Assembly (NCBI GenBank): GCA_016200085.1
Contig: JACQFL010000048.1
Coordinates: 15,350 to 79,349, forward strand
Reading direction: 5' to 3'
Source: Candidatus Rokuibacteriota bacterium
GTDB taxonomy: Bacteria > Methylomirabilota > Methylomirabilia > Rokubacteriales > CSP1-6
DNA: 64,000 nucleotides
In this document: positions 1 to 24,980 of the stretch, piece by piece
Position numbering within the stretch: the first letter of the stretch is position 1
How the letters are laid out: every line of letters starts with the position of its first letter
Notes under the pieces: model-generated
Told to the model about the DNA's origin: nothing
Database searches by the model: none
The model's input: the letters and a program-made list of their open reading frames with translations, nothing else
Program-made: the position numbers and the translations under genes

Positions 1-506
1 GCCATGCGGCAGCGCAGCGAGTAGTACCCCGTGACCATCACGATCTCGAAGATCTCCTCATCGCTGAAGCCGACCTGGCGCAGCGTCTCGACGTTCTCGG
101 GCGTCGCCTTCGCCGGCGCCAGCGCGAGGATCTCCACGTAGCCCAGCATCGCGCGCTCCGCCTCGGGCAAGGGCAGGGCGCGCCAGTTCTGCGCCAGGGT
201 CACGACCTGCGCGGCGTCACCACCGACGATCTGACGGAGAGCCTCTCCGTGAAAGGTCGTTCAGTAGGCGCAGCGATGCAGCGCCGAGGTGAGGACGGCG
301 ATCATCTCCTGTCGGCGTTTCCCGAGGGCGCAGTGCGGGCCCCTGAGCGCGTAGAGGAGGTCGGCGAGCGCCCGCATCACCCGCGCGTTGATGCTCGCCG
401 CGCGGGCGATGTTGGACACCGAGCCGTTTTGCTGCCAGACGTGCGCATACACGTCCGCCAGCTCTCCCGTCGCCTCAGCTTCCGAGATCGTCCTGATCCA
501 GGGCAT
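1..506 (-). CDS. AhpD-like / carboxymuconolactone decarboxylase family selenoprotein. It is partial and runs off the window start, with an in-frame TGA at 261..263 read as Sec.
   Basis: Minus ORF 261..878 carries the C-terminal AhpD-like core (MPWIRTISEAEATGELADVYAHVW...ALHRCAY) and stops at a TGA exactly where the CxxCxxxH motif needs its second Cys (HRCAY-U-TTFHGEAL). The same frame continues without a stop down to position 1 (…LRQIVGG…EEIFEIVMVTGYYSL…). There is a GGAAGGAGAGG Shine-Dalgarno sequence before the ATG at 504-506. Confidence 0.65.
234..250 (-). other. SECIS-like hairpin downstream of the Sec-UGA of the AhpD-like gene
   Basis: Minus-strand RNA reads UGA ACG ACC UUU C ACGGAGA-GGC-UCUCCGU. 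This is a perfect 7-bp stem with a GGC loop, starting about 10 nt after the UGA. Confidence 0.5.
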
Positions 507-910
507 CGTCCTCTCCTTCCTGATGGGAGTGGTCGAGGGAGACCGCCCGCCCGGCGGGAGGCGTTCGAAGCGTTCCCCCGGCGCCGCGTCAGCGGCGGGC
601 GTGTCGCCAAGGAGAGCGGCAGGGTGCTCCGCGCGACGCCGGTCATCGTACACCAGACACCGGGCGCCACTTCCGACCGGTGTGGGTGAAGTGCAGGACG
701 CCAACAGTCGTCTCGTGGCAGAACCTGTCGAGCCGCCGACCGGCGTCTTCGTCTCGCGCAGCGCGCCGAGCCATGGACGGGTATCCGCCGACGAGTCCTG
801 GCCCCGGCGCTCGCCTGGCTCCGGCGGTGAGGCGGGTCTCGGGGAATAAAGCTGGCACCTGGGCTGTTCTCCGAGCACGCACGAATCTCACCTTGCCGCG
901 GGAGGGACGC

Positions 911-1405
911 ATGAAGGGTTGGGGTCGGACCGTGGGGCTGACGGCGACGGCACTGGTCATGGGCGTCGGTGGGGCGTGGGCGCAGCAGCCTGCCAAGGGC
1001 ACCCCGGCAACGGTGACGGGGCGCGTCGTCGACAACATCTGCATGCTCGGCATGGGGCTCAAGGGCGAGGGACATCGGGAGTGTGCGATCGGCTGCGACA
1101 AGGCCGGTGTGCGCATGGCGCTCCTGGACGAGAAGGCCAACGTGCTTTACACGCTGATGGCCGACAAGCCGTTCGTCGATCCCAACGCCCAGATCCGCGA
1201 GTACTTCGAGCGCGTCGTGACGATCAAGGGCGACCTCTACAGCGCGCCGGGCGGCCAGAAGGTCCTCGCCATCAAGGAAGTGCAGGCGGCCCAGGCGGGC
1301 GCGGCGGCGAACCCCTGCGCCGCGAAGAATCCGTGTGCCACGAAGAATCCCTGTGCGGCCAGGAATCCTTGCGCCGCCAAGAAGCCGGCCAGCGCGACGA
1401 AGTAG
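911..1405 (+). CDS. Secreted protein with a cysteine-containing N-domain and a C-terminal tandem NPCA(A/T)(K/R) hexapeptide repeat
   Basis: GGGAGGG Shine-Dalgarno sequence before the ATG at 911. Signal peptide MKGWGRTVGLTATALVMGVGGAWAQQ. C-terminus is NPCAAKNPCATKNPCAARNPCAAKKP. Confidence 0.7.
   Translation: MKGWGRTVGLTATALVMGVGGAWAQQPAKGTPATVTGRVVDNICMLGMGLKGEGHRECAIGCDKAGVRMALLDEKANVLYTLMADKPFVDPNAQIREYFERVVTIKGDLYSAPGGQKVLAIKEVQAAQAGAAANPCAAKNPCATKNPCAARNPCAAKKPASATK
1309..1386 (+). repeat. 18-bp in-frame tandem repeat encoding NPCAAK units (about 4 copies)
   Basis: aacccctgcgccgcgaag / aatccgtgtgccacgaag / aatccctgtgcggccagg / aatccttgcgccgccaag. Confidence 0.7.
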
Positions 1406-1474
1406 CCAGGCGAGGCCGGGTGCCCTCGGCGGACCGAAGCGAGGCAGGCGCCGCTTCGCTTCGGCCCTCGCCTC

Positions 1475-1752
1475 TCAGCACGCCGTCATCTCGACGACGT
1501 TCATCTCCGCCCCGTCACCCCAGGGCGTGCACGGCAGGCCACTCGCTTCCGACGCCCTCTCACCCGTGCTCGCGGGCGGTGACAGGATGCAGGCGATCAG
1601 CGGGTTGTCGCGCGAGGTGAGCGCGGTGATGCTGGCAGGGGGCGGCTCGGTCGCGGCGGGGACGATGGGCGGCGGCTCCGAGACGCTCGAGAGCACCTCG
1701 AGCGCCACGAAGAGGGTGCCGGCCGCCAGCGCGCTGGCCGTGACGATACGCA
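1475..1752 (-). CDS. Small hypothetical secreted protein (about 92 aa)
   Basis: Internal Met of minus ORF 1475..1867 (MRIVTASALAAGTLFVALEVLSS...), with a signal-peptide-like N-terminus. No homology recognised. Confidence 0.3.
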
Positions 1753-1962
1753 TCGTGGTCCTCGACGAAGAAACCAGGTGACCCGTGAGGATATTCCCTG
1801 GGCGCCGCCGCGCTCGCCAGAGGATTCCGGCGACGGCGCGCATTCCCTTCCACACGAGAAGGGCCAACGTGGCGGAGAGTCAACAGTGTCCCCGCTGACC
1901 GTCACGGTTCTCCTGAGCGCTCATCTCGTTCCTGGGCATCGTGTCTCCTTGCCCGAGGGGAC

Positions 1963-2409
1963 TCAAAGCGTGCGCTGATTCTCGCGATCGGCGCGCCAGC
2001 GCCGGCCAACCATGTCCGCTTCCTGCGGGGACACCGGAACCACGAAGAGCGACAGCAGCGTCCGCCCTGTTCGTAGAGGATGTACGTGGCCTGGCGCCGC
2101 CGCGCCTCCGCCAGTCGGGCGCCCAGCAGCTGGGAGGCCTTCGCGGGAGAAGTCGGGGACGGCCACGCGTACGCCGGCACGCTGCCGGAACCACCGCTCG
2201 ATTTCGCCACCATGGCTCGAGACCAGCTCCGCCGGTGACGCCTCCCGCGGCTGCCACCGCACGACGCTGCTGAGCTGTCGCTCTCGCCGAACGAGGCCCA
2301 GGCAGTCGCCGCACGTCGCCACGTGGCAATCGGCTGCCCACATCGCGTCGGCTGGCAGCTCCTCGTCGATGTAGGGGTGCAGGATGGCCTCGAATGCCGC
2401 GCAGGTCAT
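1963..2409 (-). CDS. Zinc-finger (zf-HC2, HxxxCxxC) anti-sigma-factor-like protein, a paralog of the anti-sigma at 7151..7933 that lacks the TM segment
   Basis: MTCAAFEAILHPYIDEELPADAMWAADCHVATCGDCLG... Shares the RAGVRVAVPDFS and LLSLFVVPVS blocks with the other anti-sigma. It is the C-terminal 148 aa of the spurious 583-aa ORF. Confidence 0.6.
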   Translation of the reverse strand: MTCAAFEAILHPYIDEELPADAMWAADCHVATCGDCLGLVRRERQLSSVVRWQPREASPAELVSSHGGEIERWFRQRAGVRVAVPDFSREGLPAAGRPTGGGAAAPGHVHPLRTGRTLLSLFVVPVSPQEADMVGRRWRADRENQRTL

Positions 2410-2493
2410 ACCTGACGATCTAACCCGTCCCGGCCGTGGTTTATTCCGGACGCAGTGGAATGGCGTCACACGGTCGCGTGTTCTGTTCTGTTG

Positions 2494-3711
2494 ATGACGT
2501 TCCGCCGCGCGCTCTTGCGGGGGGCATCGCTGCTGCTGGTGCTTGGCGGCACGGCTCCGGCGGGCGGAGATGCTGGCGCCGACCGGGCCTTTCTCGATCG
2601 GCACTGGCGGAGACCGGTCCCGCCACAGGGCGAGGCGCCGGCGCGGTGGTCCGCACTCGAGAAGTCGCTCGCGCCGCAGAGCTGCGGGGCCTGCCATCAG
2701 GCCCAGCTCGCCGACTGGAAGACGAGCGTCCACGCGCGCAGCTTGGGGCCGGGCGTCGCCGGCCAGCTGGTGGAGATGCGCCGGAGCGATCCCGAATCCT
2801 TCCGGCTCTGTCTGTCCTGCCATGGGCCCCTGGCGGAGCAGCAGCCGGACATCGAGCGCCACGGCCGCTCCGTGCCGAATCCCGAGTTCGACCCCGGCCT
2901 CCAGGCCGCGGGTCTCGCGTGCGCGGTGTGCCACGTGCGCCAGCACGAACGGTTCGGCCCGCCCCGCCGGATCGGGATGGCGAAGGTCACGACGCCGCGG
3001 CCATCGCTTCCCCATGGTGGGGTGACGCGGACGCCGGCGTTCTCGCAGTCGACGTTCTGCACGAGCTGCCACCAGTTCTCCTCCGATGGCTTCGCGCTGA
3101 ACGGGAAGCTGCTGGAGAACACCTACGAGGAGTGGAAGCTCAGCGCCGCCGCGCGCGTGCGCCGGCAGTGTCAGGACTGTCACATGCCCGAGCGCCGGCA
3201 CCTCTGGCGCGGCATCCACGATCCGGACATGGTGAAGTCGGGCGTCGAGATCCTCGCGACGACGGCCCAGCGCTCGTATCGGCCGGGTGACGAGCTTGTG
3301 GCCACGATCGTGGTCAGGAGCGTCGGGGTCGGCCACGATTTCCCGACCTACGTCACGCCACGCGTCGTCGTGCGCGCGGCCCTGATCGACAACACGGGGG
3401 CTGCCGTGGGGGGCAGTGGGCAGGAGTACGCCATCGCACGCGAGGTCACTCTCGACCTGTCGCGGGAGATCTCGGACACCCGCATCCCTCCCGGTGGCAG
3501 CGCGAGCTTTACGTACCGGCGACGGCTCGAGCGCAAAGGCCTTTCGCTCAGCGTGAGCGTCATGGTGTATCCCGACCATTTCTACACGGGGTTCTTCGAG
3601 TCGCTGCTCGCCTCCGGTGCGGGCGCAGGCGCCCCCCAGATCCGCGAGGCGCTCGCGGCGAGCCGGCGATCGGCCTTCGAGATCTTCCGGAAGACCGTGC
3701 GCCTGACGTGA
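2494..3711 (+). CDS. Pentaheme c-type cytochrome (five CxxCH motifs), secreted
   Basis: CGACH, CLSCH, CAVCH, CTSCH, CQDCH. Signal peptide MTFRRALLRGASLLLVLGG. A GTG at 2455 is an alternative start. Confidence 0.8.
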   Translation: MTFRRALLRGASLLLVLGGTAPAGGDAGADRAFLDRHWRRPVPPQGEAPARWSALEKSLAPQSCGACHQAQLADWKTSVHARSLGPGVAGQLVEMRRSDPESFRLCLSCHGPLAEQQPDIERHGRSVPNPEFDPGLQAAGLACAVCHVRQHERFGPPRRIGMAKVTTPRPSLPHGGVTRTPAFSQSTFCTSCHQFSSDGFALNGKLLENTYEEWKLSAAARVRRQCQDCHMPERRHLWRGIHDPDMVKSGVEILATTAQRSYRPGDELVATIVVRSVGVGHDFPTYVTPRVVVRAALIDNTGAAVGGSGQEYAIAREVTLDLSREISDTRIPPGGSASFTYRRRLERKGLSLSVSVMVYPDHFYTGFFESLLASGAGAGAPQIREALAASRRSAFEIFRKTVRLT

Positions 3712-3728
3712 CACGAGGGGAGAGACGG

Positions 3729-4082
3729 ATGCGCGTGCTCATGACGGCAGCTCTGATCGTGCTGCTGAGCGCGTGCTCGACATCGGTCGTCGCCCAGGAG
3801 CGGCGGGTCACCGCGGTTTCGCGCGCTGCGTTCGCGAAGGTCGTCGAGGCGCTCGAGCAGGCCATCACGGACCAGCACCTGGCCCTGGGCTGCCAGGCCG
3901 ATCCCCCGAAGGGCGCGGCGGCGCGCGGCATCGCCATCAAGGACAAGGGCACGACGACCGTCTCGTACATGCCACCGCCGACCGTGTTCGCACCCTACAG
4001 ACATCCGGGCGTGCGCGCCGTCGCCGCCGGGCTCGATCCGATCTTCAACGCGACCGTCGATCAGGCACTGGGCGGGCGCTGA
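3729..4082 (+). CDS. Small lipoprotein (lipobox LSAC), hypothetical
   Basis: MRVLMTAALIVLLSACSTS... in ORF 3708..4082. Confidence 0.55.
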   Translation: MRVLMTAALIVLLSACSTSVVAQERRVTAVSRAAFAKVVEALEQAITDQHLALGCQADPPKGAAARGIAIKDKGTTTVSYMPPPTVFAPYRHPGVRAVAAGLDPIFNATVDQALGGR

Positions 4083-4083
4083 C

Positions 4084-4617
4084 ATGCGGCAACGCCTCGC
4101 GCTCGTGGTTGTCGGAGGCGTGGCCGGCAGTGGGCTGTTCTGGCTGGTCCAGGTGATGACGGGCGGCCCGACCATCACCGCGTTCATGGGCGAACAGGTC
4201 GCTGCTGCCGGCGGATATCCGGCAACCCTGGCGCCCGCCTTCGGGTGGATCATCCATGTCGCCGTCGGTCTCTCGTACGCGTCACTGTTTGGGGTCGTCG
4301 TCGCCCCGCTCCGCTTGCTGCCGCGGGCCGCGCTGGCCGGAACGTCGCTCGTCATGGCAATCGTGTTCGGCTGGCTGACGACCGCCATCGCGCCGTCGGC
4401 CATCAGCGTGACGGTCGGGCTGCTCGGGCACCGGCGGTGGCCCGCCGAGATCTTTCCTTTGAATTGGGACGTCGGCTTGCCGTTCTGGAATCATCAGCTC
4501 TTCTTTCTCGCCAACTGGATCATGCAGGTGCTCGGCGGGATGGTCGTCCGTGCACGGGCGAGGTCGCGGCGGCGGAGCCTGATCACCGGGCGCGAGGGCC
4601 AGGGCGAGCGGGAATAA
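4084..4617 (+). CDS. Hypothetical integral membrane protein (4-5 TM helices)
   Basis: Hydrophobic segments. Starts 2 nt after the preceding stop. No family recognised. Confidence 0.55.
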   Translation: MRQRLALVVVGGVAGSGLFWLVQVMTGGPTITAFMGEQVAAAGGYPATLAPAFGWIIHVAVGLSYASLFGVVVAPLRLLPRAALAGTSLVMAIVFGWLTTAIAPSAISVTVGLLGHRRWPAEIFPLNWDVGLPFWNHQLFFLANWIMQVLGGMVVRARARSRRRSLITGREGQGERE

Positions 4618-4671
4618 ACGCCGGGGCCGGCGGGTTCAGGGGGAAACGTTTGTATCAAGGAGGTGAGTCGA

Positions 4672-4944
4672 ATGATCCGTCAGGTGATCGGCGGCATCGC
4701 GGTCGCGGCCGCGCTCGCCCTCGCGGGGACAGACGCTCTGGCCCAGCAGGCCAACCCGTGCGCGGCCAAGAACCCGTGCGCCACGAAGGCGGCCAATCCG
4801 TGCGCGGCCAAGAACCCGTGTGCGGCCAAGAAGCCGGCTGCTGCGAAGAACCCCTGCGCGGCCAAGAACCCCTGCGCGGCCAAGAACCCGTGTGCGGCCA
4901 AGAATCCTTGCGCCGCCAAGAATCCCTGCGCCGCCAAGAAGTAG
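4672..4944 (+). CDS. Secreted peptide made almost entirely of about 11 tandem NPCAAK-like hexapeptide repeats (about 90 aa)
   Basis: Strong AAGGAGG Shine-Dalgarno sequence. Signal peptide MIRQVIGGIAVAAALALAGTDALAQQ, then ANPCAAKNPCATKAANPCAAKNPCAAKKPAAAKNPCAAK(x5)K. Confidence 0.7.
   Translation: MIRQVIGGIAVAAALALAGTDALAQQANPCAAKNPCATKAANPCAAKNPCAAKKPAAAKNPCAAKNPCAAKNPCAAKNPCAAKNPCAAKK
4749..4938 (+). repeat. 18-bp tandem repeat array encoding NPCAAK units
   Basis: Repeated aa(c/g)cc(c/g)tg(c/t)gc(g/c)gccaag units. Confidence 0.75.
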
Positions 4945-5033
4945 GATCTTTCCGGAGCCGGCCGTGCCCCCCGGGACGCCGGGGGGCCGCCGCCCCGATT
5001 CCCGTCCGTGAGGATGATCTCGGCTCGCCGGGA

Positions 5034-6188
5034 ATGGTTCTGCCGCTCGCGGGTTTGATGCACGTCGTGGTTCTTGCGCGTCGCCTTCTGTTGAAAGTCG
5101 CCACGGTGTTGGTCCTCCTTCCGGCGCTTGCCATCAGTCCCGCATTCGCGCACGACGGTCCCCCCGCTGGCGCCGTCGTACCCAGCGAGCGCATCGATCC
5201 GCGCCAGGTCTATCCCTTCGGCGTCGTCGCCGGCGGGGGCGGACACTTCCACGTCCTGCAGGTCATGCCAGGGGAGCGACGCGTCTTTGCCGGCACCCAT
5301 CTGGGGCTGTTCGTGAGCGAAGACCGAGGGCTCACGTGGCGTCTCGTCGCGCCTCGCTTCAGCGGCGTCGACGTCCACGGCCTCGCACGCGATGCGGCCA
5401 CGGGAGCGTTGTATGCGGCGACCCACGGACAGGGCCTTCTCGTCAGCGAGGACGGTGGCACCCGGTGGCGGGACGGCTCGGCGAGCCTGCCCGGCCGCGA
5501 CCTGCACGCCCTCGCCCTCGATGCCCATGATCGGGGCACGATCTACGTCTGGTCCGTTGGCCATGGTCTCTTCGCTCGGCGAGGTCGCGTGCGGATGTGG
5601 GAACGCCTGGCGGGGCGAGAGGCCCTCACCCAGGTGGAGAGCCTCGCCATCCATCCACAGAATTCGCGGCGGCTCTACGCGGGAACCGCGGCCGGGGTGC
5701 TTGTCAGCGAGGACGGCGGCCGCCGGTGGATGCTACCGCCCGGCGGCCTCGAGCGTCGGACCGCCGGCGTCGCGGTCGTCCCGAGCCGGCCTGACATGGT
5801 CCTCGCCGCGACGTTCGACGGGGTCTTCGCCGGTCACGCAGCCGGCGCGGACTGGAAGCCGCTCGAGGCAGCGCCCTCGTGGTGGGGCCCGATCGTGGGG
5901 TTCGCGTTCGTCGGCGATCGGCCCGACACCGTCTTTGCCGTCTCGCACGAGGGACCGGTCGTCATGCGCGCGGTGTGGGATGGCCCCTGGATACCTCTCG
6001 CGGCGCGACCGCCGGCCACGAGTCGGCGAATCAGCGCCCGCCCTTCGGGGCCGGTCCACGAGCGCGGACCAACCGCAGTGGTGAGCACCCGGCCGTCACG
6101 GCCGATCAAAACCACGGTGGGCGTCGCCCGGACGCCATACGCCCGGGCGACCCGCATGTCGGGATCGAGCACCACGGGAGCGCTGTAG
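5034..6188 (+). CDS. BNR/Asp-box repeat (sialidase-like / Ycf48-like beta-propeller) secreted protein. The 3' end is uncertain.
   Basis: Repeated SxDxGxTW motifs (SEDRGLTW, SEDGGTRW, SEDGGRRW). Signal peptide (...KVATVLVLLPALAISPAFA). A TTG about 57 nt downstream of the ATG is an alternative start. The tail beyond about 6000 overlaps the convergent TlpA-like gene and may not be coding. Confidence 0.6.
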   Translation: MVLPLAGLMHVVVLARRLLLKVATVLVLLPALAISPAFAHDGPPAGAVVPSERIDPRQVYPFGVVAGGGGHFHVLQVMPGERRVFAGTHLGLFVSEDRGLTWRLVAPRFSGVDVHGLARDAATGALYAATHGQGLLVSEDGGTRWRDGSASLPGRDLHALALDAHDRGTIYVWSVGHGLFARRGRVRMWERLAGREALTQVESLAIHPQNSRRLYAGTAAGVLVSEDGGRRWMLPPGGLERRTAGVAVVPSRPDMVLAATFDGVFAGHAAGADWKPLEAAPSWWGPIVGFAFVGDRPDTVFAVSHEGPVVMRAVWDGPWIPLAARPPATSRRISARPSGPVHERGPTAVVSTRPSRPIKTTVGVARTPYARATRMSGSSTTGAL

Positions 6189-6553
6189 CCACGCGCCTTC
6201 ACCTCGCGGGCGACAGTCGTGGCGTCTTCACCGACATCGACGAGCACCGCGGTGAAGCCGTCCGGGGCGAGCTCCTTCGCCATCGCGTCGATCGAGGGCA
6301 ACTCCCTCGCGCAGTGCGGTCACCAGGTGGCCCAGAAATAGAGCATGACGAGATGGCCGCGGAACTGATCCAGCGACACCGTGTGCCCGGTGACGTCGCG
6401 CAGGCTGAAGGCCGGCGCCGTCACGGGCTCGGCCGCGGGCGCCACCCCCAGCGCGTCCCACAGCGCCGAGTCCGTCGTGGCACCCGCCGCGGCGGAGGCG
6501 ACGAACAGGACGCCGAGGACCACACTCGCCCAGGGGGGTCGCCGCGTGATCAC
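5834..6553 (-). CDS. TlpA/thioredoxin-like (redoxin) selenoprotein, periplasmic. In-frame TGA at 6320..6322 read as Sec (U-P-H-C). The 3' end is uncertain.
   Basis: ORFs 6320..6553 and 5834..6301 are in the same frame, separated only by a TGA: ...LVMLYFWATW-U-PHCARELPSIDAMAKELAP...ATPTVVLIGRDGRV. This is the thioredoxin WCxxC motif with the first Cys coded as UGA. Signal peptide MITRRPPWASVVLGVLFVASAAAGA. Confidence 0.65.
6293..6309 (-). other. SECIS-like hairpin downstream of the Sec-UGA of the TlpA-like gene
   Basis: UGA CCG CAC UGC G CGAGGG-AGUUG-CCCUCG. A 6-bp stem with a 5-nt loop, starting 10-11 nt after the UGA. Confidence 0.5.
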
Positions 6554-7134
6554 GCTTGAACCTCCCGCATCGAGTGGGTGGGGCGCGCTCTCACGTCGAT
6601 CGCGAGACGGCTGAGGATCTCGAGCGAGCGATCGTTGAACGGATCCACGCCGGGATTGGCGAGGCGGTGCTCGGCGAGGCGTGTGATCTTTCCCTCCTGG
6701 AGCCGCTCGATCTGGGGAGTGAACGCCTGGAATACCAGATTGACGAACCGCACGAGGCGCGCGTCACCCCGGGTTTCGTCGATGCGAAACCGACGCGCAT
6801 ACCGTTTGAGAGCCGCCCCGCTCTCGTACCGGTCTCCGATCGCCCAGAGGTTCAGGGTGAACAGCGCCTGCGGCCAGCCGTCACGCGCCATGGAGATGGC
6901 GACGAGATGCACGGTGTGATCGGGGAACAGCCTTACCGTGTGGAAATGTCCGGCCTCGTGCGTCGCGCCGTCGTGACGGTGAAAATATGACTGGCAGCCC
7001 GTGTCGCGGTCGAAGACCCCGTAGTCGTCCGGATACAAGGTCCAGGGCGTCACGTCGCGACCGCCGCAGGCGAGCTCCATCACCGTCGTGCCGTCACGCT
7101 CGAGCGCGGTGAGCAGCTGGCGAAGCTCGGTCAT
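6550..7134 (-). CDS. Hypothetical cupin-like protein (HRHDG...EAGHFH His cluster)
   Basis: Internal Met MTELRQLL of ORF 6550..7221. ATGA overlap with the downstream TlpA-like gene. Confidence 0.5.
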   Translation of the reverse strand: MTELRQLLTALERDGTTVMELACGGRDVTPWTLYPDDYGVFDRDTGCQSYFHRHDGATHEAGHFHTVRLFPDHTVHLVAISMARDGWPQALFTLNLWAIGDRYESGAALKRYARRFRIDETRGDARLVRFVNLVFQAFTPQIERLQEGKITRLAEHRLANPGVDPFNDRSLEILSRLAIDVRARPTHSMREVQA

Positions 7135-7150
7135 GGCCCTGGCCACGGGA

Positions 7151-7933
7151 TCAGAGACGGTTGCGCTCGGCACGCTCGAGGCGGAGCCGGTCGGCGCACT
7201 CGAGGAGCGCGTCGTAATCAAGCGCCGACACCAGGCCGAAGACCGCGCGGCCGTCCGTCCACGCCACCGTCCGATAACCCTTCAGGTCTTTCGCGAAGTA
7301 CTCCTGCCCGCGGAAGGTCACAGGTCGGCCGGTCAGGTGCGCGTCGGGGCCGCTGACCGGCACGACGAACACCGACAGGAGCGTCCGGCCCTTCTCGTAG
7401 AAGATGTAGGCCACTTTGCGCTCGTGTGCCTCGGCGAGGCGGCCGCCGATCAACTGGATGCCCGCCGGCGAGTAGTCCGGAACGGCCACGCGAAGGCCGG
7501 CCCGCTGCTGGAACCACTGCTCGAGCTCGCCGCGGTCATTCGAGGCGAGCTCCACGGGCCGCTCGATCTGGGCGTAGGCGATGTGCTTGTCGACGAGCTC
7601 GGCCAGGAGCGGGGCGGAGGGCCGGCTCGCGGGCAAGAGGACCGCCACGAGGAGCGCCGCCACCGCGGCGGCGAGCGGCGCCACGAGCCAGGGGCGCCAC
7701 GCGACGCGGCGCTGCTCGCGGCGCACGAGCGCGGTGATCTTCGCGCGGAACTCCGGCGACGCCGCTTCCCGGGGCTGGCGGCGGAGGACCTCGCGGAACT
7801 GGCGCTCGCGCCCGAGGAGACCGGCGCAGTCCCGGCACCCCGCGAGGTGCGCGTCCGCCGCCGCCATCGCCTCCACCGGCAACTCGCCATCGAGGTAGGG
7901 ATGCACGCTCGCCGCGAATTCTCTGCAGCTCAT
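7151..7933 (-). CDS. Anti-sigma factor: zf-HC2 (HxxxCxxC) N-domain, one TM segment, periplasmic C-domain
   Basis: MSCREFAASVHPYLDGELPVEAMAAADAHLAGCRDCAG... 4-nt overlap with the upstream ECF sigma gene. Confidence 0.8.
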   Translation of the reverse strand: MSCREFAASVHPYLDGELPVEAMAAADAHLAGCRDCAGLLGRERQFREVLRRQPREAASPEFRAKITALVRREQRRVAWRPWLVAPLAAAVAALLVAVLLPASRPSAPLLAELVDKHIAYAQIERPVELASNDRGELEQWFQQRAGLRVAVPDYSPAGIQLIGGRLAEAHERKVAYIFYEKGRTLLSVFVVPVSGPDAHLTGRPVTFRGQEYFAKDLKGYRTVAWTDGRAVFGLVSALDYDALLECADRLRLERAERNRL

Positions 7934-8523
7934 TCCTCGTCCCTCACGTATCCATGCTCGCGCGCCAGCCGCGTGAGGGCCTGCCGCAGCAGGTGCCGGC
8001 CCCGCGACAGGCGGGACATCACGGTGCCCACCGGGCAGCCGACGACGTCGGCGACCTCCCGATAGCTGAGGCCCTCGAGGTCCACGAGCACCACGGCCTC
8101 GCGGAACACCAGGGGCAGGCCTTTGAGCGCCCGATCGACGTCACCATGCAGGACGGTCTGGAAGAACGCTTCCTCCGGGTTGACGAACCCCATCGACGTC
8201 GCGCTGGGCTGGCCGGTCTCCCACACGGCCGCATCGGGCTCCAGGACCTCACGCCCGTCCTTGCGCAGCCGATTCAGGAACACGTTTCTGAGAATCGTGA
8301 GGAGCCAGGCGCGACAGTTGGTCCCCGGGTTGAACCGGTGAAAGTTGCGGAACGCCCGCAGCACCGCCTCCTGGACCACATCCTCGGCCTCCCCCCGGCT
8401 GCGCGTCAGACGAAGCGCCGTCTGGTAGAGCGTCTCGAGATGGACGAGGGCCGTCCGCTCGAACTCGCTGCCCTCCGATGCCGCGGTCCGCCAGGGAATC
8501 GGAAACCCTCCTGTCGTGAGAAC
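7930..8523 (-). CDS. ECF (sigma-70 family, RpoE-like) sigma factor
   Basis: Regions 2 and 4 are recognisable (LVHLETLYQTALRLT..., LPLVFREAVVLVDLEGLSYREVADVVGCPVGTVMSRLSRGRHLLRQ). The GTG at 8523 is a guess. The ORF extends to 8682. Confidence 0.7.
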   Translation of the reverse strand, partial: VLTTGGFPIPWRTAASEGSEFERTALVHLETLYQTALRLTRSRGEAEDVVQEAVLRAFRNFHRFNPGTNCRAWLLTILRNVFLNRLRKDGREVLEPDAAVWETGQPSATSMGFVNPEEAFFQTVLHGDVDRALKGLPLVFREAVVLVDLEGLSYREVADVVGCPVGTVMSRLSRGRHLLRQALTRLAREHGYVRDEE

Positions 8524-8566
8524 ACCACGACCCGCGCGGATATTCCGGCCTCGGGGGTGGCCCCGC

Positions 8567-9655
8567 TCAGGGAGCCGTACCGAGGATCGTCGTCGGGTGA
8601 AACGCCGCCCAGGCGAACCAGAACGCATCGACGTGAGGGATCGCACGCAGCCGGCGTCCCGCCAGCGGCCCCTTGACCCCACGGCCGAGCAGGTTCCAGG
8701 TCGTGCCGGTCTCCCGGTCGCGGAAGCCCCCCTCGTTTGCCTCGAATGTCAGGCTCTTTCCGTCGAGCATTCGACTGTAGACGGCGGTGGCGCCGACCGC
8801 GCGCGACCGCTCGATCCGCGCATCGTCGAGCGCCGAGAGGGCGCCCGGCTGAAAGAAGATCACGAGCGCCTCGCGGTCGATGGCGTCGTGCAGCACCCGC
8901 CGCTCGGCCAGAATCGGCCAGGGGTACGCCTTGGCCGTCTCGCCGATCTTCACGCCGACCACGCGCTCCTTCGGTGGCCGACGCGTATCCGGCCGACCGT
9001 TGAAGAGGAACGGACGAAGCTCCGGCTGATCGTATGACCCGTAGGGATTGGCGCCGTACTGGCGCTGGTGTCCCGTCTCCCGCGACAGGACCTTGCCGTC
9101 CGGGTGGGCCGCCTTCCAGTCCGCGAACGCGATCGTGTTGGCGGGCACCAGCGCGAGCCGCGTCCCCGCACGCTGGCCGACGAGGGCCCGACCTTCCATC
9201 TGCGCCCAGAGCGAGTGGCTCTGACGGTCGTACATGACGAGGTCGCTCTTGTACACCTTGCCCGACGTCCCGAAGTCGAGCGTCACGTCTCCGACCACCC
9301 GGTCGAACGCGATGCCCGAGTTGCGCAGCGGACAGAAGGTCACGACGACAGGCTTGCCCCCGACGGTGTCGTTCACGATCTCGTGCCACATGAGAATCTG
9401 GAGCGGATACGCCCGCGCATCGCCGTTGATCTCCAGCGCGAGCACGGGCTCCTGGGGCACCAGCCACGCGGCTTGACGCGCGGCGATGAACGCCGGTCGA
9501 TCGATCGCCGGGATGCCGTCTGGAGGCGGGCCGCCGGGGATGATCTCGTCGAGCGGGACCAGCGCCTTGCTCTCGTCGGTCCTGAGCCGCTCGGCGGTCG
9601 CCGCCGAAGCGATCAGGACGGTCAGCGCCACCATGATCGGTACGCGTTTCAACAT
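8567..9655 (-). CDS. DUF3179 family secreted protein
   Basis: Internal Met MLKRVPIMVALTVLIASAATA of ORF 8567..10048. Confidence 0.6.
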   Translation of the reverse strand: MLKRVPIMVALTVLIASAATAERLRTDESKALVPLDEIIPGGPPPDGIPAIDRPAFIAARQAAWLVPQEPVLALEINGDARAYPLQILMWHEIVNDTVGGKPVVVTFCPLRNSGIAFDRVVGDVTLDFGTSGKVYKSDLVMYDRQSHSLWAQMEGRALVGQRAGTRLALVPANTIAFADWKAAHPDGKVLSRETGHQRQYGANPYGSYDQPELRPFLFNGRPDTRRPPKERVVGVKIGETAKAYPWPILAERRVLHDAIDREALVIFFQPGALSALDDARIERSRAVGATAVYSRMLDGKSLTFEANEGGFRDRETGTTWNLLGRGVKGPLAGRRLRAIPHVDAFWFAWAAFHPTTILGTAP

Positions 9656-10129
9656 CTGCCGGCTCACGTGGTCCCTCCCTCGGGCGCGTCCGGCCTTACG
9701 GCGCCTGCACGGGCTCGCTCCGGTGCGACGCATCGATGGTCCGGGAGGACGTTCCAGGCGACGCGGCGGGTGACAGCGTGTCCATCGTCGCCTCCTTGCA
9801 GCGCCCTTCTCGGCGCCGTCACTGTAGAACACGCGGCGGGCCACCTCCATTCCCGCTCGGTCGCGAATCGCCATCGTTTCAAGCTCGGCAGGGGGCGGAT
9901 CGTGCGACTCGGAGAGTCGCCGTAGCGGAAGTCGCTGACGACGATGGGGTTTGTGCCCCGAAACGCCATCGGAGGAGCGGCTGGAGAGAAGACCCGGGAC
10001 GTTCGCGCGGAGGGGTCCGGAGAGCGGAAAGATCGGGTGACGCTGCACGATGTCGAGGTTAGCGGCCGGTCATCGGCCCCGGGGCGCCCGGCGGTCGTGG
10101 ACAGATCGTTTCACGCGTCGTGGCGCTGA

Positions 10130-11020
10130 TTAGACCGTCCGCTCCCGCTCGCCGAAGAGGCCGGTGGGGCGGATGACGAGCAGGCCGATCAGGAACACGA
10201 AGCCGTAGAGATCCTTGTAGGCGGCCGAGAAGAACACCGAGCCCAGGGCCTCGATGAGGCCGAGGAGCACGCCGCCGACGACCGATCCCAGGATGGAGCC
10301 GAGGCCCCCGATCACGATGATCTCGAAGCCCTTGAACGTCGAGATCGCCCCGCCCTCCGGATAGACGAGGAAGTCCGGCGCGAGGAGGGCCCCGGCCGCC
10401 GCGGCCAGGGCCACGCCCACGCCGAACGCGAGCATGTCGAGTCGGAGCACGTCGACCCCGGCGGTCTGGATGCCGACGCGGTTCTGGGCGGCGCCACGGA
10501 ACGCCGTCCCGATCCACGTGCGCTTCACGAGCAGGTAGAAGAGCGCGAGCAGCGCCAGCGTGGCGATGAGGGCCACGAAGCGGTTGCCGGAGATGGGCAG
10601 GGTGAGCAGCGTGGTCGGGCGCGCGTAGTCCCGCGGCGCGTACTGGTTGGGCCCGCCGAGCACGACGGCGAGGTTCCGGAAGAGGACCATGAGCGCGATG
10701 GTGACGATCGTCGCGTACTCGTCACGCCGCTCGATCCCCCGCACGTACATCGGGCGCAGGAGCACGCGCTGCGTGACGAGCCCGAGCACGAAGACCGCCC
10801 CCATCGTGAGCGGCAGCGCGATCCACCAGCGCCCCGGGCCGAGCACGGTGGCCAGCAGCGCGTACTGCACGTAGCTGCCGATCATGTAGAACTCGCCCAT
10901 GGCCCAGTTGATCATCTTCATGATGCCGTAGATGAACGTGATCCCGAGCGCCATCAGGCTGTAGATGACCCCGATGACGAGCCCCGAGAGCACGTACTGG
11001 GACAGGAGGAACGCGTCCAC
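10130..11020 (-). CDS. livH: Branched-chain amino acid ABC transporter permease (LivH-type)
   Basis: 296-aa polytopic protein with a typical LivH signature. Confidence 0.8.
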   Translation of the reverse strand: MDAFLLSQYVLSGLVIGVIYSLMALGITFIYGIMKMINWAMGEFYMIGSYVQYALLATVLGPGRWWIALPLTMGAVFVLGLVTQRVLLRPMYVRGIERRDEYATIVTIALMVLFRNLAVVLGGPNQYAPRDYARPTTLLTLPISGNRFVALIATLALLALFYLLVKRTWIGTAFRGAAQNRVGIQTAGVDVLRLDMLAFGVGVALAAAAGALLAPDFLVYPEGGAISTFKGFEIIVIGGLGSILGSVVGGVLLGLIEALGSVFFSAAYKDLYGFVFLIGLLVIRPTGLFGERERTV

Positions 11021-24797: not shown

Positions 24798-24827
24798 GAC
24801 CCCGCGAGGTGTATACTCCGGAGAGTC

Positions 24828-24915
24828 GTCGTGGGGGGAGGAATCCTGAGAACCGGGTGCGGCCCGGGACCCCTCGAACCTGCTCTGGATAATCCCAGCG
24901 AAGGGAACACGCCGA
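24828..24915 (+). promoter_or_regulatory. TPP (THI-box) riboswitch upstream of thiS
   Basis: ggggaggaatcCTGAGAaccgggtgcggcccgggACCCctcGAACCTGctCTGGATAATcCCAGCGaAGGGAA. The CGGCCGCGGAG immediately 5' of the thiS ATG can pair with an upstream GGCCGCG element, which would sequester the Shine-Dalgarno sequence. Confidence 0.85.
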
Positions 24916-24980
24916 CGGATCGCGGCCGCGCCCGAAGTCTCGGGACAGCGGCCGTTGCTGTTTCCGGCCGCGGAGCGGGC

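What the first reader, a model, noticed from the sequence alone, without database searches (positions are those of the whole stretch)
5834..8523. ECF sigma, zinc-finger anti-sigma, cupin-like protein and Sec-TlpA as one overlapping operon
Four minus-strand genes are chained by 4-nt overlaps and short gaps. They are the ECF sigma (ends 7930), the anti-sigma with an HxxxCxxC motif (7933..7151), the cupin-like protein (7134..6550) and the Sec-TlpA (6553..5834). HxxxCxxC zinc-finger anti-sigmas of the RsrA type sense thiol or redox stress. This one is also membrane-anchored. Its regulon would include a selenocysteine redoxin, which suggests a redox-stress circuit whose effector is a selenoprotein.
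Basis: inference. Interest (0 to 1): 0.65.

Follow-up and report, generated by a model that had tools for sequence, protein, structure and literature searches.

The report
ECF sigma operon ending in selenoprotein TlpA
An uncultured soil bacterium (Candidatus Rokubacteria) carries a stress sigma factor, its membrane anti-sigma factor, an unknown protein and a genuine selenocysteine-containing periplasmic thioredoxin-like reductase as one operon, and that sigma factor appears to drive about eight promoters packed into a 10-kb island of exported cysteine- and haem-rich proteins.

Summary
On the minus strand an ECF sigma gene (stop 7930), a zf-HC2 anti-sigma gene (7151-7933), a DUF6969 gene (6550-7134) and a TlpA/redoxin gene (5834-6553) are linked by ATGA and GTGA overlaps and one 16-nt gap.

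The TlpA gene has an in-frame TGA (6320-6322) in place of the first Cys of WCxxC. It is a real selenoprotein. Six species-level genomes and at least 120 metagenome contigs keep the same TGA, and an invariant hairpin built from rare codons follows it.

Three corrections:
- "Cupin-like" is wrong. The protein is DUF6969, and its model has no PDB fold match.
- Position 8523 lies in the -10 box, not in a start codon.
- DUF3179, the gene upstream, belongs to the conserved module.

GGAAT-N17-19-GTT occurs 8 times in the window against 0.94 expected, and all 8 hits lie in 843-9853, each correctly placed upstream of an ORF.

The sigma is closest to SigH/SigR. The anti-sigma differs from RsrA: it spans the membrane, has an RseB/LolA-like periplasmic domain and lacks RsrA's redox-determinant residues. 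The redox reading is therefore only partly supported.

Sec-TlpA is one recurrent but optional member of a selenoprotein-rich envelope regulon. This is a new variant of a known kind.

The parts
8521..8546 (-). Autoregulatory ECF-type promoter P7 (GGAATATCCGCGCGGGTCGTGGTGTT; -35 GGAAT, -10 GTT) in the DUF3179-sigma intergenic region
   Evidence: Pattern hit. The same GGAATA-N16-GGTT motif lies upstream of the sigma gene in 12 other Rokubacteria loci.
7930..8499 (-). ECF sigma factor, 189 aa if started at ATT 8499 (alternative ATG 8628, 232 aa, would overlap DUF3179)
   Evidence: Pfam r2 + r4_2. Best NCBIfam hit TIGR02947 SigH_actino, 160 bits, below its cut-off. Best PDB sequence hit M. tuberculosis SigH, E 1e-36. 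Homologues start with GTG/ATG/CTG one codon before the conserved I-x-W.
7151..7933 (-). Single-pass membrane ZAS anti-sigma factor (260 aa): cytoplasmic C3/H29/C33/C36 zinc motif, TM at about 82-102, periplasmic RseB/MucB-like domain at about 107-260 with invariant C246
   Evidence: Pfam zf-HC2. TIGR03988 RsrA 47.8 bits, below its cut-off. Alignment A3 gives the invariant residues. AF2 model pLDDT 83. Foldseek MucB/RseB E 6.5e-4.
6550..7134 (-). DUF6969 protein (194 aa), cytoplasmic, with invariant H52, H54, E60, H65, H76 (H63 is conserved in at least 90% of sequences); function unknown
   Evidence: Pfam PF22308 E 9e-34. Alignment A1. AF2 pLDDT 87.5. No PDB fold match. Small family: 751 cluster representatives.
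5834..6553 (-). Selenoprotein TlpA-like periplasmic thiol:disulfide oxidoreductase (239 aa including Sec78; active site W-U-P-H-C). The last ~50 aa are a lineage-specific tail that overlaps the convergent propeller gene.
   Evidence: Pfam AhpC-TSA/Redoxin. Cys homologues have WCPYC and end about 50 aa earlier. Five other species carry the same in-frame TGA.
6320..6322 (-). In-frame UGA read as selenocysteine
6293..6309 (-). bSECIS-like hairpin CGAGGG-AGUUG-CCCUCG, starting 10 nt after the UGA
   Evidence: Centroid fold. Identical in 6 species apart from one loop base. 24 of 30 nt are invariant around the UGA against 5-13 elsewhere, and the hairpin uses rare AGG and TTR codons. Sec paralogues have different-sequence hairpins at the same offset; a Cys paralogue has none.
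8567..9655 (-). DUF3179 exported protein (about 362 aa). Its active-site motif is CPLR here, against CPLC in all relatives.
   Evidence: Pfam PF11376 E 4e-105. Lies between the anti-sigma and DUF6969 in relatives. Motif comparison.
9828..9853 (-). ECF-type promoter P8 upstream of DUF3179
5031..5055 (+). ECF-type promoter P6 upstream of the BNR/F510_1955-like propeller gene (GTG 5067..6188, convergent with TlpA)
   Evidence: BNR/Sortilin and NCBIfam NF045728 hits.
4611..4636 (+). ECF-type promoter P5 upstream of the (NPCAAK)10 secreted repeat protein (4672..4944)
   Evidence: NPCAAK genes sit behind the same motif in 7 loci.
2457..2482 (+). ECF-type promoter P4 upstream of the five-haem cytochrome c (2494..3711), a DUF302-like lipoprotein (3729..4082) and a membrane protein (4084..4617)
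2422..2447 (-). ECF-type promoter P3 upstream of a decayed, TM-less paralogue of the anti-sigma gene (1963..2409)
1772..1797 (-). ECF-type promoter P2 upstream of a 92-aa secreted protein ending in MTAC (1475..1753)
843..868 (+). ECF-type promoter P1 upstream of a 164-aa secreted protein with a C-terminal NPCAAK x4 tail (911..1405)

Best explanation
This is the autoregulated core operon of a SigH/SigR-like ECF sigma factor in Candidatus Rokubacteria.

Proposed mechanism:
1. The sigma factor is held at the membrane by a zinc-finger (C-H-C-C) anti-sigma factor. Its large, very conserved periplasmic domain has the RseB/MucB (LolA-like) fold and one invariant cysteine.
2. On an envelope signal the anti-sigma is inactivated. 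Inactivation is most likely triggered from the periplasmic side, probably followed by proteolysis as in RsiW-type factors. The signal itself is unknown.
3. The freed sigma transcribes promoters of the form GGAAT-N17-19-GTT.

In this window there are eight such promoters, all within a 10-kb island. One of them (8521-8546) drives sigma, anti-sigma, DUF6969 and Sec-TlpA as one translationally coupled unit.

TlpA is a true selenoprotein. UGA 6320-6322 is decoded as Sec with the help of the hairpin at 6293-6309, giving a periplasmic, membrane-anchored U-x-x-C thiol:disulfide reductase.

The other products are mostly exported proteins rich in Cys, Sec or haem: DUF3179, (NPCAAK)n repeat proteins, a five-haem cytochrome, a DUF302-like lipoprotein, a propeller and small Cys proteins. 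The regulon is therefore best read as an inducible envelope thiol/selenol redox system in which Sec-TlpA supplies reducing power.

Shown here: the gene anatomy, the Sec codon and its hairpin, the conserved synteny, and the promoter motif with its clustering.

Inferred: that this sigma uses these promoters, the direction of signalling, the role of Sec-TlpA, and the stress sensed.
For: Anatomy and overlaps. Domains.

Conserved order sigma, anti-sigma, DUF3179, DUF6969, then (Sec-TlpA): seen in 13-15 genome loci and in metagenome contigs, including minimal sigma, anti-sigma, Sec-TlpA versions.

Sec:
- The same in-frame TGA is found in 6 species at 43-57% protein identity.
- An invariant hairpin built from rare codons follows it.
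- Sec paralogues have co-varying hairpins and a Cys paralogue has none.
- The UGA-plus-hairpin signature occurs in at least 120 metagenome contigs.
- UxxC redoxin and TlpA selenoproteins are known families, and Methylomirabilota are reported as selenoprotein-rich (PMC9312934, PMC13188914).

Promoter:
- GGAATA-N16-GGTT is conserved upstream of 12 sigma genes.
- The window has 8 hits against 0.94 expected (maximum 3 in 100 shuffles). All lie in 843-9853, each upstream of an ORF in the right orientation.
- No hit lies inside the operon in any locus.
- No sigma-70-like promoter was found in 5500-10200. The only terminator-like site (8861-8875) lies in the DUF3179 gene, upstream of P7.

Sigma identity: best matches are SigH_actino and M. 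tuberculosis SigH.

Anti-sigma: the zinc ligands and C246 are invariant, and the periplasmic domain has the RseB/MucB fold.

Regulon theme: genes first behind the motif in relatives are NPCAAK proteins, multihaem cytochrome, YeeE/YedE (with an in-frame TGA), Sec-Prx, DUF547, DUF302 and FGE-like proteins.
Against: - There is no expression or binding data. Assigning the motif to this sigma is an inference from position, conservation and similarity to the SigH/SigR consensus.
- The hairpin region as a whole does not fold better than shuffled sequence (z = +1.1). The hairpin itself never varies among orthologues, so the support comes from synonymous-site conservation and from paralogues.
- No Sec machinery gene and no tRNA-Sec lie in the window.
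- Sec-TlpA is absent from more than half of the related loci, and half of the contigs with this Sec-TlpA type lie outside the ECF cluster without the motif. It may be an add-on rather than a core effector.
- The full C-H-C-C motif and the RsrA-like top hit leave cytoplasmic thiol sensing possible.
- The functions of DUF6969, DUF3179 and the NPCAAK proteins are unknown.
Confidence: 0.6

Rival explanations
1. The anti-sigma works like RsrA/RshA: oxidation of its cytoplasmic zinc-bound cysteines by thiol or disulfide stress releases the sigma, and Sec-TlpA is the principal effector of a redox-stress circuit.
For: All four zinc ligands (C3, H29, C33, C36) are invariant. The best NCBIfam hits are RsrA for the anti-sigma and SigH_actino for the sigma. 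The promoter matches the SigR/SigH type GGAAT-N18-GTT. The regulon contains thioredoxin-fold reductases, as the SigR regulon does.
Against: Both NCBIfam scores are below cut-off (47.8 against 62.5 bits; 160 against 251 bits). RsrA's redox determinants E39, E40, L45, E46 (PMC3177212) are A31, G32, A37, G38 here. The protein is 260 aa with a TM segment and a strongly conserved RseB-like periplasmic domain that a purely cytoplasmic sensor would not need. The products are periplasmic, not cytoplasmic. TlpA is optional in the family.
Confidence: 0.2
2. The island is a specific defence or trafficking system for a soft, thiophilic species: Cu/Hg/Ag/Cd, selenite or tellurite, or sulfane sulfur or thiosulfate. 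In this model the NPCAAK repeat proteins act as a periplasmic binding sponge or carrier, and Sec-TlpA and DUF3179 keep their thiols reduced.
For: The exported proteins carry a Cys every six residues. Related loci have a neighbouring MerR plus HMA P-type ATPase. YeeE/YedE, DUF302, DUF547 and DoxD/DoxX lie behind the same promoter motif. In Alphaproteobacteria DUF6969 sits next to rhodanese, YeeE, cytochrome c, NPCAxK proteins, a MerR regulator and a Sec-Prx. DUF3179, YeeE and metal-handling proteins are known selenoprotein families (PMC9312934, PMC13188914).
Against: The evidence is purely contextual. No metal-binding domain (HMA, CopC, MerP) lies in the window island. No protein of the set has been characterised, and the contexts are heterogeneous.
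Confidence: 0.25
3. Sec-TlpA is a maturation factor rather than a stress effector. It would be a ResA/CcmG/TlpA-type reductase that prepares the CxxCH sites of the co-induced five-haem cytochrome, or another exported client, for cofactor attachment.
For: Reducing apocytochrome c and Cu-protein cysteines is the established role of this family (general knowledge of ResA, CcmG and B. japonicum TlpA). A multihaem cytochrome is driven by the divergent copy of the same promoter in most loci.
Against: The two genes do not co-occur consistently. L002, L003 and L014 have the cytochrome but no Sec-TlpA directly downstream of the operon (L003 carries a Sec-TlpA paralogue about 750 nt away on the opposite strand). 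L006 and L017 have Sec-TlpA, but no cytochrome hit was found in the fetched DNA.
Confidence: 0.15
4. The TGA is an ordinary stop or a nonsense mutation, giving a split or dead TlpA gene. Alternatively, the motif cluster is a repeated sequence unrelated to this sigma, so the genes have independent regulation.
For: Public annotation splits the gene into 77-aa and 149-aa ORFs. Rfam finds no SECIS family in the window. The hairpin region as a whole does not fold better than shuffled sequence. No experimental data exist.
Against: The TGA sits exactly at the catalytic Cys position. It is kept in frame, with conserved protein on both sides, in 6 species and at least 120 contigs. Nucleotide-level conservation uses rare codons. 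The motif hits are 8 against 0.94 expected, all correctly oriented before ORFs and conserved across 15 loci.
Confidence: 0.04

Closest known systems
SigR-RsrA (Streptomyces) / SigH-RshA (Mycobacterium, Corynebacterium), ECF12 thiol-oxidative stress system
   Same: The sigma is most similar to SigH (PDB 5zx2_F, E 1e-36; TIGR02947 top hit). The anti-sigma domain has the C-H-C-C zinc motif and RsrA as its top hit. The promoter is autoregulated and of the form GGAAT-N17-18-GTT. The regulon contains thioredoxin-fold reductases.
   Different: Scores are below the family cut-offs. The anti-sigma spans the membrane and carries a 150-aa periplasmic RseB-like domain. RsrA's redox-determinant residues are absent. 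The targets are exported, not cytoplasmic. The reductase is a selenoprotein.
SigW-RsiW (Bacillus subtilis) and RslA-SigL (M. tuberculosis): membrane-anchored ZAS anti-sigma factors
   Same: The architecture is the same: a zinc-finger anti-sigma domain, a single TM segment and an extracytoplasmic domain. RsiW is the only PDB sequence hit for the anti-sigma (E 0.2). The likely release mechanism is signalling from outside the membrane, or proteolysis.
   Different: The extracytoplasmic domain here has the RseB/MucB (LolA-like) fold and an invariant Cys. The sigma belongs to the SigH lineage, not the SigW or SigL lineage. No protease genes were identified.
Known bacterial UxxC selenoprotein redoxins (Prx-like thiol:disulfide oxidoreductase, thiol:disulfide interchange protein, Redoxin family, TlpA family; PMC9312934, PMC13188914)
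   Same: Thioredoxin fold, Sec replacing the N-terminal Cys of CxxC, a hairpin right after the UGA, and Cys-containing homologues.
   Different: In the papers I could search, none of these is described as the terminal gene of an ECF sigma/anti-sigma operon or linked to DUF6969 and DUF3179.
RseB/MucB, periplasmic partner of the anti-sigma factors RseA/MucA
   Same: The fold of the anti-sigma's periplasmic domain (Foldseek E 6.5e-4, about 100 residues, rmsd 2.8-4.4 A).
   Different: Here the domain is fused to the anti-sigma itself rather than being a separate protein. Sequence identity is only 13-19%. The ligand is unknown.

Membership tests
ECF (group IV) sigma factor | Only sigma-2 and sigma-4 domains, about 170-200 aa | tested here: met
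   Pfam Sigma70_r2 E 1.5e-17 and Sigma70_r4_2 E 4e-14, with nothing else. TIGR02937 sigma70-ECF scores 87.6 bits, above its cut-off of 42.9.
ECF (group IV) sigma factor | Cognate anti-sigma gene co-transcribed immediately downstream | tested here: met
   ATGA overlap at 7930-7933. The same overlap is seen in 13 loci.
ECF (group IV) sigma factor | Autoregulation from a conserved -35/-10 ECF-type promoter | tested here: inconclusive
   The motif is present and conserved upstream of the sigma gene in the window and 12 loci. Use of the motif by this sigma has not been tested.
SigR/SigH-RsrA/RshA (ECF12) thiol-oxidative stress pair | Sigma scores above the SigH family cut-off | tested here: not met
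   TIGR02947 scores 160 bits against a cut-off of 251.55.
SigR/SigH-RsrA/RshA (ECF12) thiol-oxidative stress pair | Anti-sigma scores above the RsrA cut-off and is a small soluble protein | tested here: not met
   TIGR03988 scores 47.8 bits against a cut-off of 62.5. The protein is 260 aa with a TM helix and a periplasmic domain.
SigR/SigH-RsrA/RshA (ECF12) thiol-oxidative stress pair | C/H-x(23-26)-H-x3-C-x2-C zinc ligands | tested here: met
   C3, H29, C33, C36 are invariant in 25 sequences.
SigR/SigH-RsrA/RshA (ECF12) thiol-oxidative stress pair | Redox-determinant residues flanking the cysteines (E39, E40, L45, E46 of RsrA; PMC3177212) | tested here: not met
   The equivalent residues are A31, G32, A37, G38 in the window. 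The family consensus keeps at most the E before C33.
SigR/SigH-RsrA/RshA (ECF12) thiol-oxidative stress pair | Promoter GGAAT-N18-GTT | tested here: met
   That this is the SigR/SigH consensus rests on my own knowledge of the literature.
Membrane ZAS anti-sigma released by regulated proteolysis (RsiW type) | ZAS domain, one TM segment, extracytoplasmic domain | tested here: met
Membrane ZAS anti-sigma released by regulated proteolysis (RsiW type) | Site-1 and site-2 cleavage on signal | not testable with these tools
   Needs biochemistry or genetics.
Bacterial selenoprotein | In-frame UGA aligned with a catalytic Cys of homologues, with conserved coding sequence on both sides | tested here: met
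   WCPYC in Cys homologues against W-TGA-PHC here. Six species. At least 120 contigs.
Bacterial selenoprotein | SECIS stem-loop immediately downstream of the UGA | tested here: met
   The hairpin starts 10 nt after the UGA and its loop contains GU. Synonymous sites are conserved. Sec paralogues have different hairpins at the same offset and a Cys paralogue has none. No Rfam family matched.
Bacterial selenoprotein | selA, selB, selC (tRNA-Sec) and selD in the genome | not tested
   The window has no tRNA at all, and a motif scan found no SelD-like or SelB-type GTPase motif. The rest of the genome was not available. The phylum is reported as Sec-rich (PMC13188914).
Bacterial selenoprotein | Selenium actually incorporated | not testable with these tools
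   Needs 75Se labelling or mass spectrometry.
TlpA/ResA/CcmG periplasmic thiol:disulfide oxidoreductase | Thioredoxin fold with a W-C/U-x-x-C active site, a cis-Pro (TPT) motif and an N-terminal signal or anchor | tested here: met
   Pfam AhpC-TSA, Redoxin and Thioredoxin_8. W-U-P-H-C and A-T-P-T-V are visible in the sequence. The hydrophobic N-terminus is VVLGVLFVASAAAGA.
   Only PF22308 DUF6969 matches. The AF2 model (pLDDT 87.5) has 6 strands plus helices. The best Foldseek PDB hit has E 0.045 and TM 0.17, and no cupin is among the 50 hits shown.

The most novel reading that the evidence does not exclude
A SigH-like ECF sigma factor, gated by a membrane zinc-finger anti-sigma with an RseB-like sensor domain, governs a compact envelope regulon built largely around selenoproteins. 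Across genomes these are Sec-TlpA, Sec-peroxiredoxin, Sec-YeeE/YedE and Sec-DUF3179. The regulon also holds secreted (NPCAAK)n cysteine-repeat proteins, a multihaem cytochrome and the unknown metalloprotein-like DUF6969. Together they would form an inducible, selenium-dependent periplasmic thiol buffer, or a sulfur/selenium/soft-metal handling system, that has not been described. Its DUF3179-DUF6969-NPCAxK-Sec-redoxin core is shared with Alphaproteobacteria under a different regulator (MerR).
Probability: 0.3. Interest if true: 0.75.

Novelty: new variant of a known kind. Interest (0 to 1): 0.55.

Why it matters
ECF sigma/anti-sigma pairs and UxxC selenoprotein redoxins are each well known. 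A sigma regulon whose conserved targets are selenoproteins and cysteine-repeat secreted proteins is not described in the papers I could search.

The system is common in soil Rokubacteria: hundreds of near-full-length homologues and at least 120 metagenome contigs. It is compact (8 promoters in 10 kb) and has a sharply defined promoter motif. That makes it unusually easy to test in a heterologous host for an uncultured phylum.

It could show three things:
- what signal a SigH-type sigma senses when its ZAS partner is moved to the membrane;
- why these bacteria invest selenium in envelope redox proteins;
- what DUF6969, DUF3179 and the NPCAAK proteins do.

Tried and rejected
- **Rfam at gathering threshold.** It found only a TPP riboswitch and no SECIS family.
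- **ARAGORN.** No tRNA, and so no tRNA-Sec, in the window.
- **Motif scan for Sec machinery.** No SelD-like or SelB-type GTPase motif in the window.
- **Whole-region folding after the UGA.** Not better than shuffles. The evidence for the SECIS had to come from comparative data instead.
- **Sigma-70 promoter and terminator scan of 5500-10200.** Nothing relevant.
- **Protein database search with TlpA.** It returned mainly Cys paralogues and the truncated 149-aa annotation. It missed the Sec orthologues because gene callers split them. They were recovered from DNA.
- **Profile search for DUF6969.** A small family, with no informative domain fusions.
- **Literature searches.** DUF6969, NPCAAK, and ECF sigma plus selenocysteine gave nothing relevant.
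- **Scan for further in-frame TGA selenoprotein candidates in the window.** It found only adjacent genes that share a frame, and it also missed the known TlpA TGA, so it was not sensitive.
- **Start codon at 8523.** Rejected: it is a GTT codon.

Full report
**1. What is in the sequence**

The window is about 72% G+C. Its closest public relative is a Candidatus Rokubacteria MAG contig: GCA_016178425.1, locus L001, whose proteins in this region are 99-100% identical to the window's.

- The sigma ORF ends with TGA at 7930-7932. This overlaps the ATG of the next gene (7931-7933) as ATGA.
- That gene ends at 7151.
- After 16 nt a 194-aa ORF runs from 7134 to 6550. Its TGA overlaps the GTG of the last gene (6551-6553) as GTGA.
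- The last frame runs to 5834 and is interrupted once, by TGA at 6320-6322, in the context FWATW-TGA-PHC.

Pfam gives:
- Sigma70_r2 plus r4_2 for the first protein;
- zf-HC2 at residues 3-37 of the second;
- DUF6969 (PF22308, E 9e-34) for the third;
- AhpC-TSA/Redoxin/Thioredoxin families (E about 5e-25) for the fourth, when the TGA is read as Cys.

**2. Corrections to the observation**

- **The "cupin-like" protein is not a cupin.** Only DUF6969 matches it. An AlphaFold2 model built on 26 homologues (pLDDT 87.5) has six strands and several helices. It finds nothing in the PDB by Foldseek (best E 0.045, TM 0.17). The histidine cluster that probably prompted the label is real and conserved: H52, H54, E60, H65 and H76 are invariant, and H63 is conserved in at least 90% of sequences.
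- **Position 8523 is a GTT codon, not a start.** It lies inside the -10 box of a promoter-like motif (see section 5). Homologous sigma genes start with GTG, ATG or CTG one codon before a conserved I-x-W. The window has CCG-ATT there. ATT 8499, 7 nt after AGGAGG, is therefore the likely start (189 aa, which matches the homologue lengths of 176-192 aa). NCBI's ATG 8628 would overlap the upstream gene and lies upstream of the promoter.
- **The upstream same-strand gene belongs to the module.** It is a signal-peptide-bearing DUF3179 protein (8567..about 9655; PF11376, E 4e-105).

**3. Comparative anatomy**

A DUF6969 alignment was used to scan GTDB species representatives. It returned 13 Rokubacteria/Methylomirabilota loci (58-68% identity) and 67 mostly alphaproteobacterial loci (about 30% identity).

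A tblastn of the window's proteins against these loci, together with gene tables for three metagenome or MAG contigs, shows a canonical Rokubacteria order:
- (NPCAAK-repeat secreted proteins);
- a multihaem cytochrome, divergent;
- sigma, anti-sigma, DUF3179, DUF6969, and in L006, L009, L011, L016 and L017 a TlpA gene directly downstream.

The window differs only in that DUF3179 sits upstream of the sigma.

**4. The selenocysteine**

All five other TlpA genes that follow DUF6969 carry an in-frame TGA at the same position: FW(A/G)(T/S)W-TGA-PHC(A/T)RELPS. Protein identity to the window's TlpA is 43-57%. In four of the five the start codon overlaps the DUF6969 stop (ATGA or TTGA). In L016 there is a 20-nt gap.

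The closest full-length database homologues are Cys forms (WCPYC, 46-49% identity). They end about 50 residues earlier than the window ORF.

Ten nucleotides after the UGA lies the hairpin CGAGGG-AGUUR-CCCUCG. It is identical in all six species except for one loop base. It is encoded by AGG (Arg) and TTG/TTA (Leu), which are rare codons in a genome with GC3 of 0.8-0.98.

In the ten-codon window starting two codons before the UGA, 24 of 30 nucleotides are invariant. Ten-codon windows downstream of it have 4-13, and the windows just upstream rise from 11 to 20.

Other TlpA paralogues in these loci are also Sec forms. Their hairpins differ in sequence but sit at the same offset: L003 has GGAGGG/CCCUCC, and L005b and L017b differ again. 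A Cys paralogue (L005a, WCPPC) has no such hairpin.

The 33-nt UGA-plus-hairpin signature occurs in at least 120 metagenome contigs; the scan stopped at its limit.

Reviews list UxxC Prx-like, Redoxin and TlpA selenoproteins as known families. They also report a Methylomirabilota MAG with 63 predicted selenoprotein genes (PMC9312934, PMC13188914).

I conclude the TGA is a Sec codon.

Caveats:
- The region as a whole does not fold better than shuffles.
- Rfam has no match.
- No Sec machinery lies in the window.

**5. The promoter and the regulon**

The 260 nt upstream of 12 homologous sigma genes share GGAATA-N16-GGTT(T), with N15 in one locus. This equals GGAAT-N17/18-GTT. Many loci also carry its reverse complement 40-70 nt further upstream, facing the divergent cytochrome or DUF302 gene.

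In the window GGAAT-N17-19-GTT occurs 8 times. Dinucleotide shuffles give 0.94 on average and at most 3. All 8 hits lie between 843 and 9853, and each sits upstream of an ORF in the right orientation:

| Promoter | Position and strand | Downstream unit |
|---|---|---|
| P1 | 843-868 + | 164-aa secreted protein with an NPCAAK x4 tail (911..1405) |
| P2 | 1772-1797 - | 92-aa secreted protein ending in MTAC (1475..1753) |
| P3 | 2422-2447 - | decayed anti-sigma paralogue (1963..2409) |
| P4 | 2457-2482 + | five-haem cytochrome (2494..3711), DUF302-like lipoprotein, membrane protein |
| P5 | 4611-4636 + | (NPCAAK)10 protein (4672..4944) |
| P6 | 5031-5055 + | BNR/F510_1955-like propeller (5067..6188) |
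| P7 | 8521-8546 - | sigma operon |
| P8 | 9828-9853 - | DUF3179 |

Three units (P3, P4, P6) have only 11-12 nt between the -10 box and the start codon, and P2 has 18 nt.

In the related Rokubacteria loci fetched from genomes and metagenomes, the motif lies before the sigma gene wherever that gene is present with its upstream DNA. It also lies before the NPCAAK genes and the divergent cytochrome. It never lies inside the stretch from sigma to DUF6969/TlpA. No sigma-70-like promoter was found in 5500-10200. The only terminator-like site lies inside DUF3179, upstream of P7.

The motif, however, is of the SigR/SigH type rather than AAC...CGT.

Assigning the motif to this sigma is an inference. 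It is supported by the sigma's closest relatives: TIGR02947 SigH_actino (160 bits) and M. tuberculosis SigH in the PDB (E 1e-36).

**6. The anti-sigma factor**

Hundreds of homologues of nearly constant length (258-261 aa, 60-80% identity) exist in soil metagenomes.

In an alignment of 25 sequences, C3, H29, C33 and C36 are invariant. So is a single periplasmic cysteine, C246.

The N-terminal domain's best NCBIfam hit is RsrA: 47.8 bits, below the 62.5 cut-off. RsiW is the only PDB sequence hit (E 0.2).

Jung et al. (PMC3177212) showed that the HxxxCxxC motif alone does not confer redox sensitivity. They identified E39, E40, L45 and E46 of RsrA as the determinants. The equivalent residues here are A31, G32, A37 and G38.

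The AlphaFold2 model (pLDDT 83) has a TM helix and a confidently predicted periplasmic domain. That domain matches the N-terminal LolA-like domain of MucB/RseB (E 6.5e-4, probability 1.0, about 100 residues, rmsd 2.8-4.4 A).

On this evidence I favour signalling from the periplasmic side, as in RsiW-type factors. Cytoplasmic thiol sensing is not excluded.

**7. How tightly Sec-TlpA is tied to the operon**

Sixty metagenome contigs with the Sec-TlpA signature have enough upstream sequence to judge:
- 21 have DUF6969 directly upstream;
- 6 have DUF3179 directly upstream;
- 3 have the anti-sigma directly upstream, i.e. a minimal sigma, anti-sigma, Sec-TlpA operon;
- 30 sit in other contexts, and 29 of those lack the ECF motif.

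Among the genome loci about 6 of 15 have it.

Sec-TlpA is thus a recurrent but optional terminal gene of the operon. Its Sec state is a property of the wider Rokubacteria TlpA family, not of the ECF system alone.

**8. Theme of the regulon**

I took the first ORF behind each motif in 16 Rokubacteria loci (the first 12 kb of the window plus 15 relatives) and clustered them. The counts are:
- sigma operon: 13;
- NPCAAK proteins: 9, in 7 loci;
- multihaem cytochrome: 7;
- DUF547: 3;
- YeeE/YedE: 3;
- DUF302: 3;
- small secreted proteins ending in MTAC: 3;
- FGE-sulfatase-like: 2;
- single cases of DoxD/DoxX and a radical SAM protein.

Further selenoproteins appear in the same islands:
- The YeeE/YedE genes of L006 and L016 have an in-frame TGA (KG-U-ATS).
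- The AhpC/Prx gene of L016 has AHW-TGA-PYC, and the matching ORF in L017 ends at ...AHW followed by a stop.
- L003 and L004 carry a DUF3179 paralogue with TW-TGA-PLC.

The regulon therefore repeatedly recruits selenoproteins of four families.

In Alphaproteobacteria DUF6969 neighbours cytochrome c (17 of 67 loci), rhodanese (10), YeeE (6) and NPCAxK-repeat proteins (about 8). One locus, L066, has DUF3179, DUF6969, an NPCAGK-repeat protein and a Sec-Prx (GAW-TGA-PYC) next to a MerR regulator.

This points to envelope thiol/selenol chemistry. Soft metals or reactive sulfur/selenium species are possible targets, but no member has been characterised.

**9. Verdict**

Supported:
- There is one operon.
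- The selenoprotein is real.
- An ECF promoter sits upstream of the sigma operon and throughout the island.
- The lineage is SigH/RsrA-like.

Not supported:
- The RsrA-type sensing mechanism is not supported by the residue test or by the architecture.
- Sec-TlpA is one optional member of a larger exported regulon rather than the sole effector.

I rate this a new variant of a known kind, with interest 0.55.

Noticed in passing
window 4672..4944 (+) and 911..1405 (+): Two secreted proteins built on the hexapeptide NPCAAK. One has a signal peptide followed by about 10 tandem repeats (18-nt period, TRF score 187). The other has a 125-aa domain followed by 4 repeats. Both sit behind the ECF-type motif. 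NPCAxK-repeat ORFs also lie directly next to DUF6969 in several Alphaproteobacteria (L048, L052, L058, L059, L066, L070, L074, L081). They have no Pfam or NCBIfam family and no literature hit.
   Followed up: partly
window 1963..2409 (-): A decayed paralogue of the anti-sigma gene, about 70% identical at nucleotide level. It keeps the ZAS motif but has a 201-nt in-frame deletion that removes the TM segment, two compensating frameshifts and a truncated end. It has its own ECF-type promoter 12 nt upstream of its ATG and lies divergent to the cytochrome gene, which is where relatives have the sigma operon. It could be a relic of a rearrangement or a soluble anti-sigma.
   Followed up: partly
window 5834..6188: The TlpA ORF (-) and the BNR/F510_1955-like propeller ORF (+) converge and overlap by 355 nt. 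The window's TlpA has a tail of about 50 aa that is absent from all five orthologues and from the Cys homologues. Apparent propeller hits in L009 and L011 are antisense translations of TlpA.
   Followed up: partly
window 8497..8499 (-); homologues in L003, L005, L014, L015, L016: The sigma gene appears to start with ATT here. In five relatives it starts with CTG, at the position where others have GTG or ATG. Non-canonical starts may keep basal sigma levels low.
   Followed up: partly
window 8567..9655 (-); L003 5260..5749; L004 55..541: The window's DUF3179 has CPLR where all 16 relatives have CPLC, so the second Cys is lost. L003 and L004 carry a second DUF3179 copy with an in-frame TGA (TW-U-PLC), the known Sec form of this family.
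   Followed up: partly
L006 4715..4990 (-) and downstream; L016 289..564 (+); L016 7374..7936 (-); L017 6412..6609 (+): In relatives, YeeE/YedE genes with an in-frame TGA (KG-U-ATS) and an AhpC/Prx gene with an in-frame TGA (AHW-U-PYC in L016; the matching L017 ORF stops right after ...AHW) sit directly behind the same ECF-type motif.
   Followed up: partly
L066 6800..10167 (alphaproteobacterial MAG): The order is DUF3179, DUF6969, an NPCAGK-repeat secreted protein and an AhpC/TSA gene with an in-frame TGA (GAW-U-PYC), next to a divergent MerR regulator and flanked by pyridine nucleotide-disulfide oxidoreductases and a CMD/AhpD-like protein. The same module occurs under a different regulator in another phylum.
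   Followed up: partly
window 1..10100 against the rest: Genes of the island have GC3 of about 0.80-0.84. Genes elsewhere in the window have 0.93-0.98. This suggests horizontal acquisition or different expression or selection.
   Followed up: no
window 1475..1753 (-); L012 890..1147 (-); L016 1290..1568 (+): Three small (85-92 aa) secreted proteins behind the ECF-type motif all end with the C-terminal tetrapeptide M-T-A-C.
   Followed up: no
window 24824..24924 (+): TPP riboswitch (Rfam RF00059, 56.3 bits against a gathering score of 54.3). It is unrelated to the finding.
   Followed up: no
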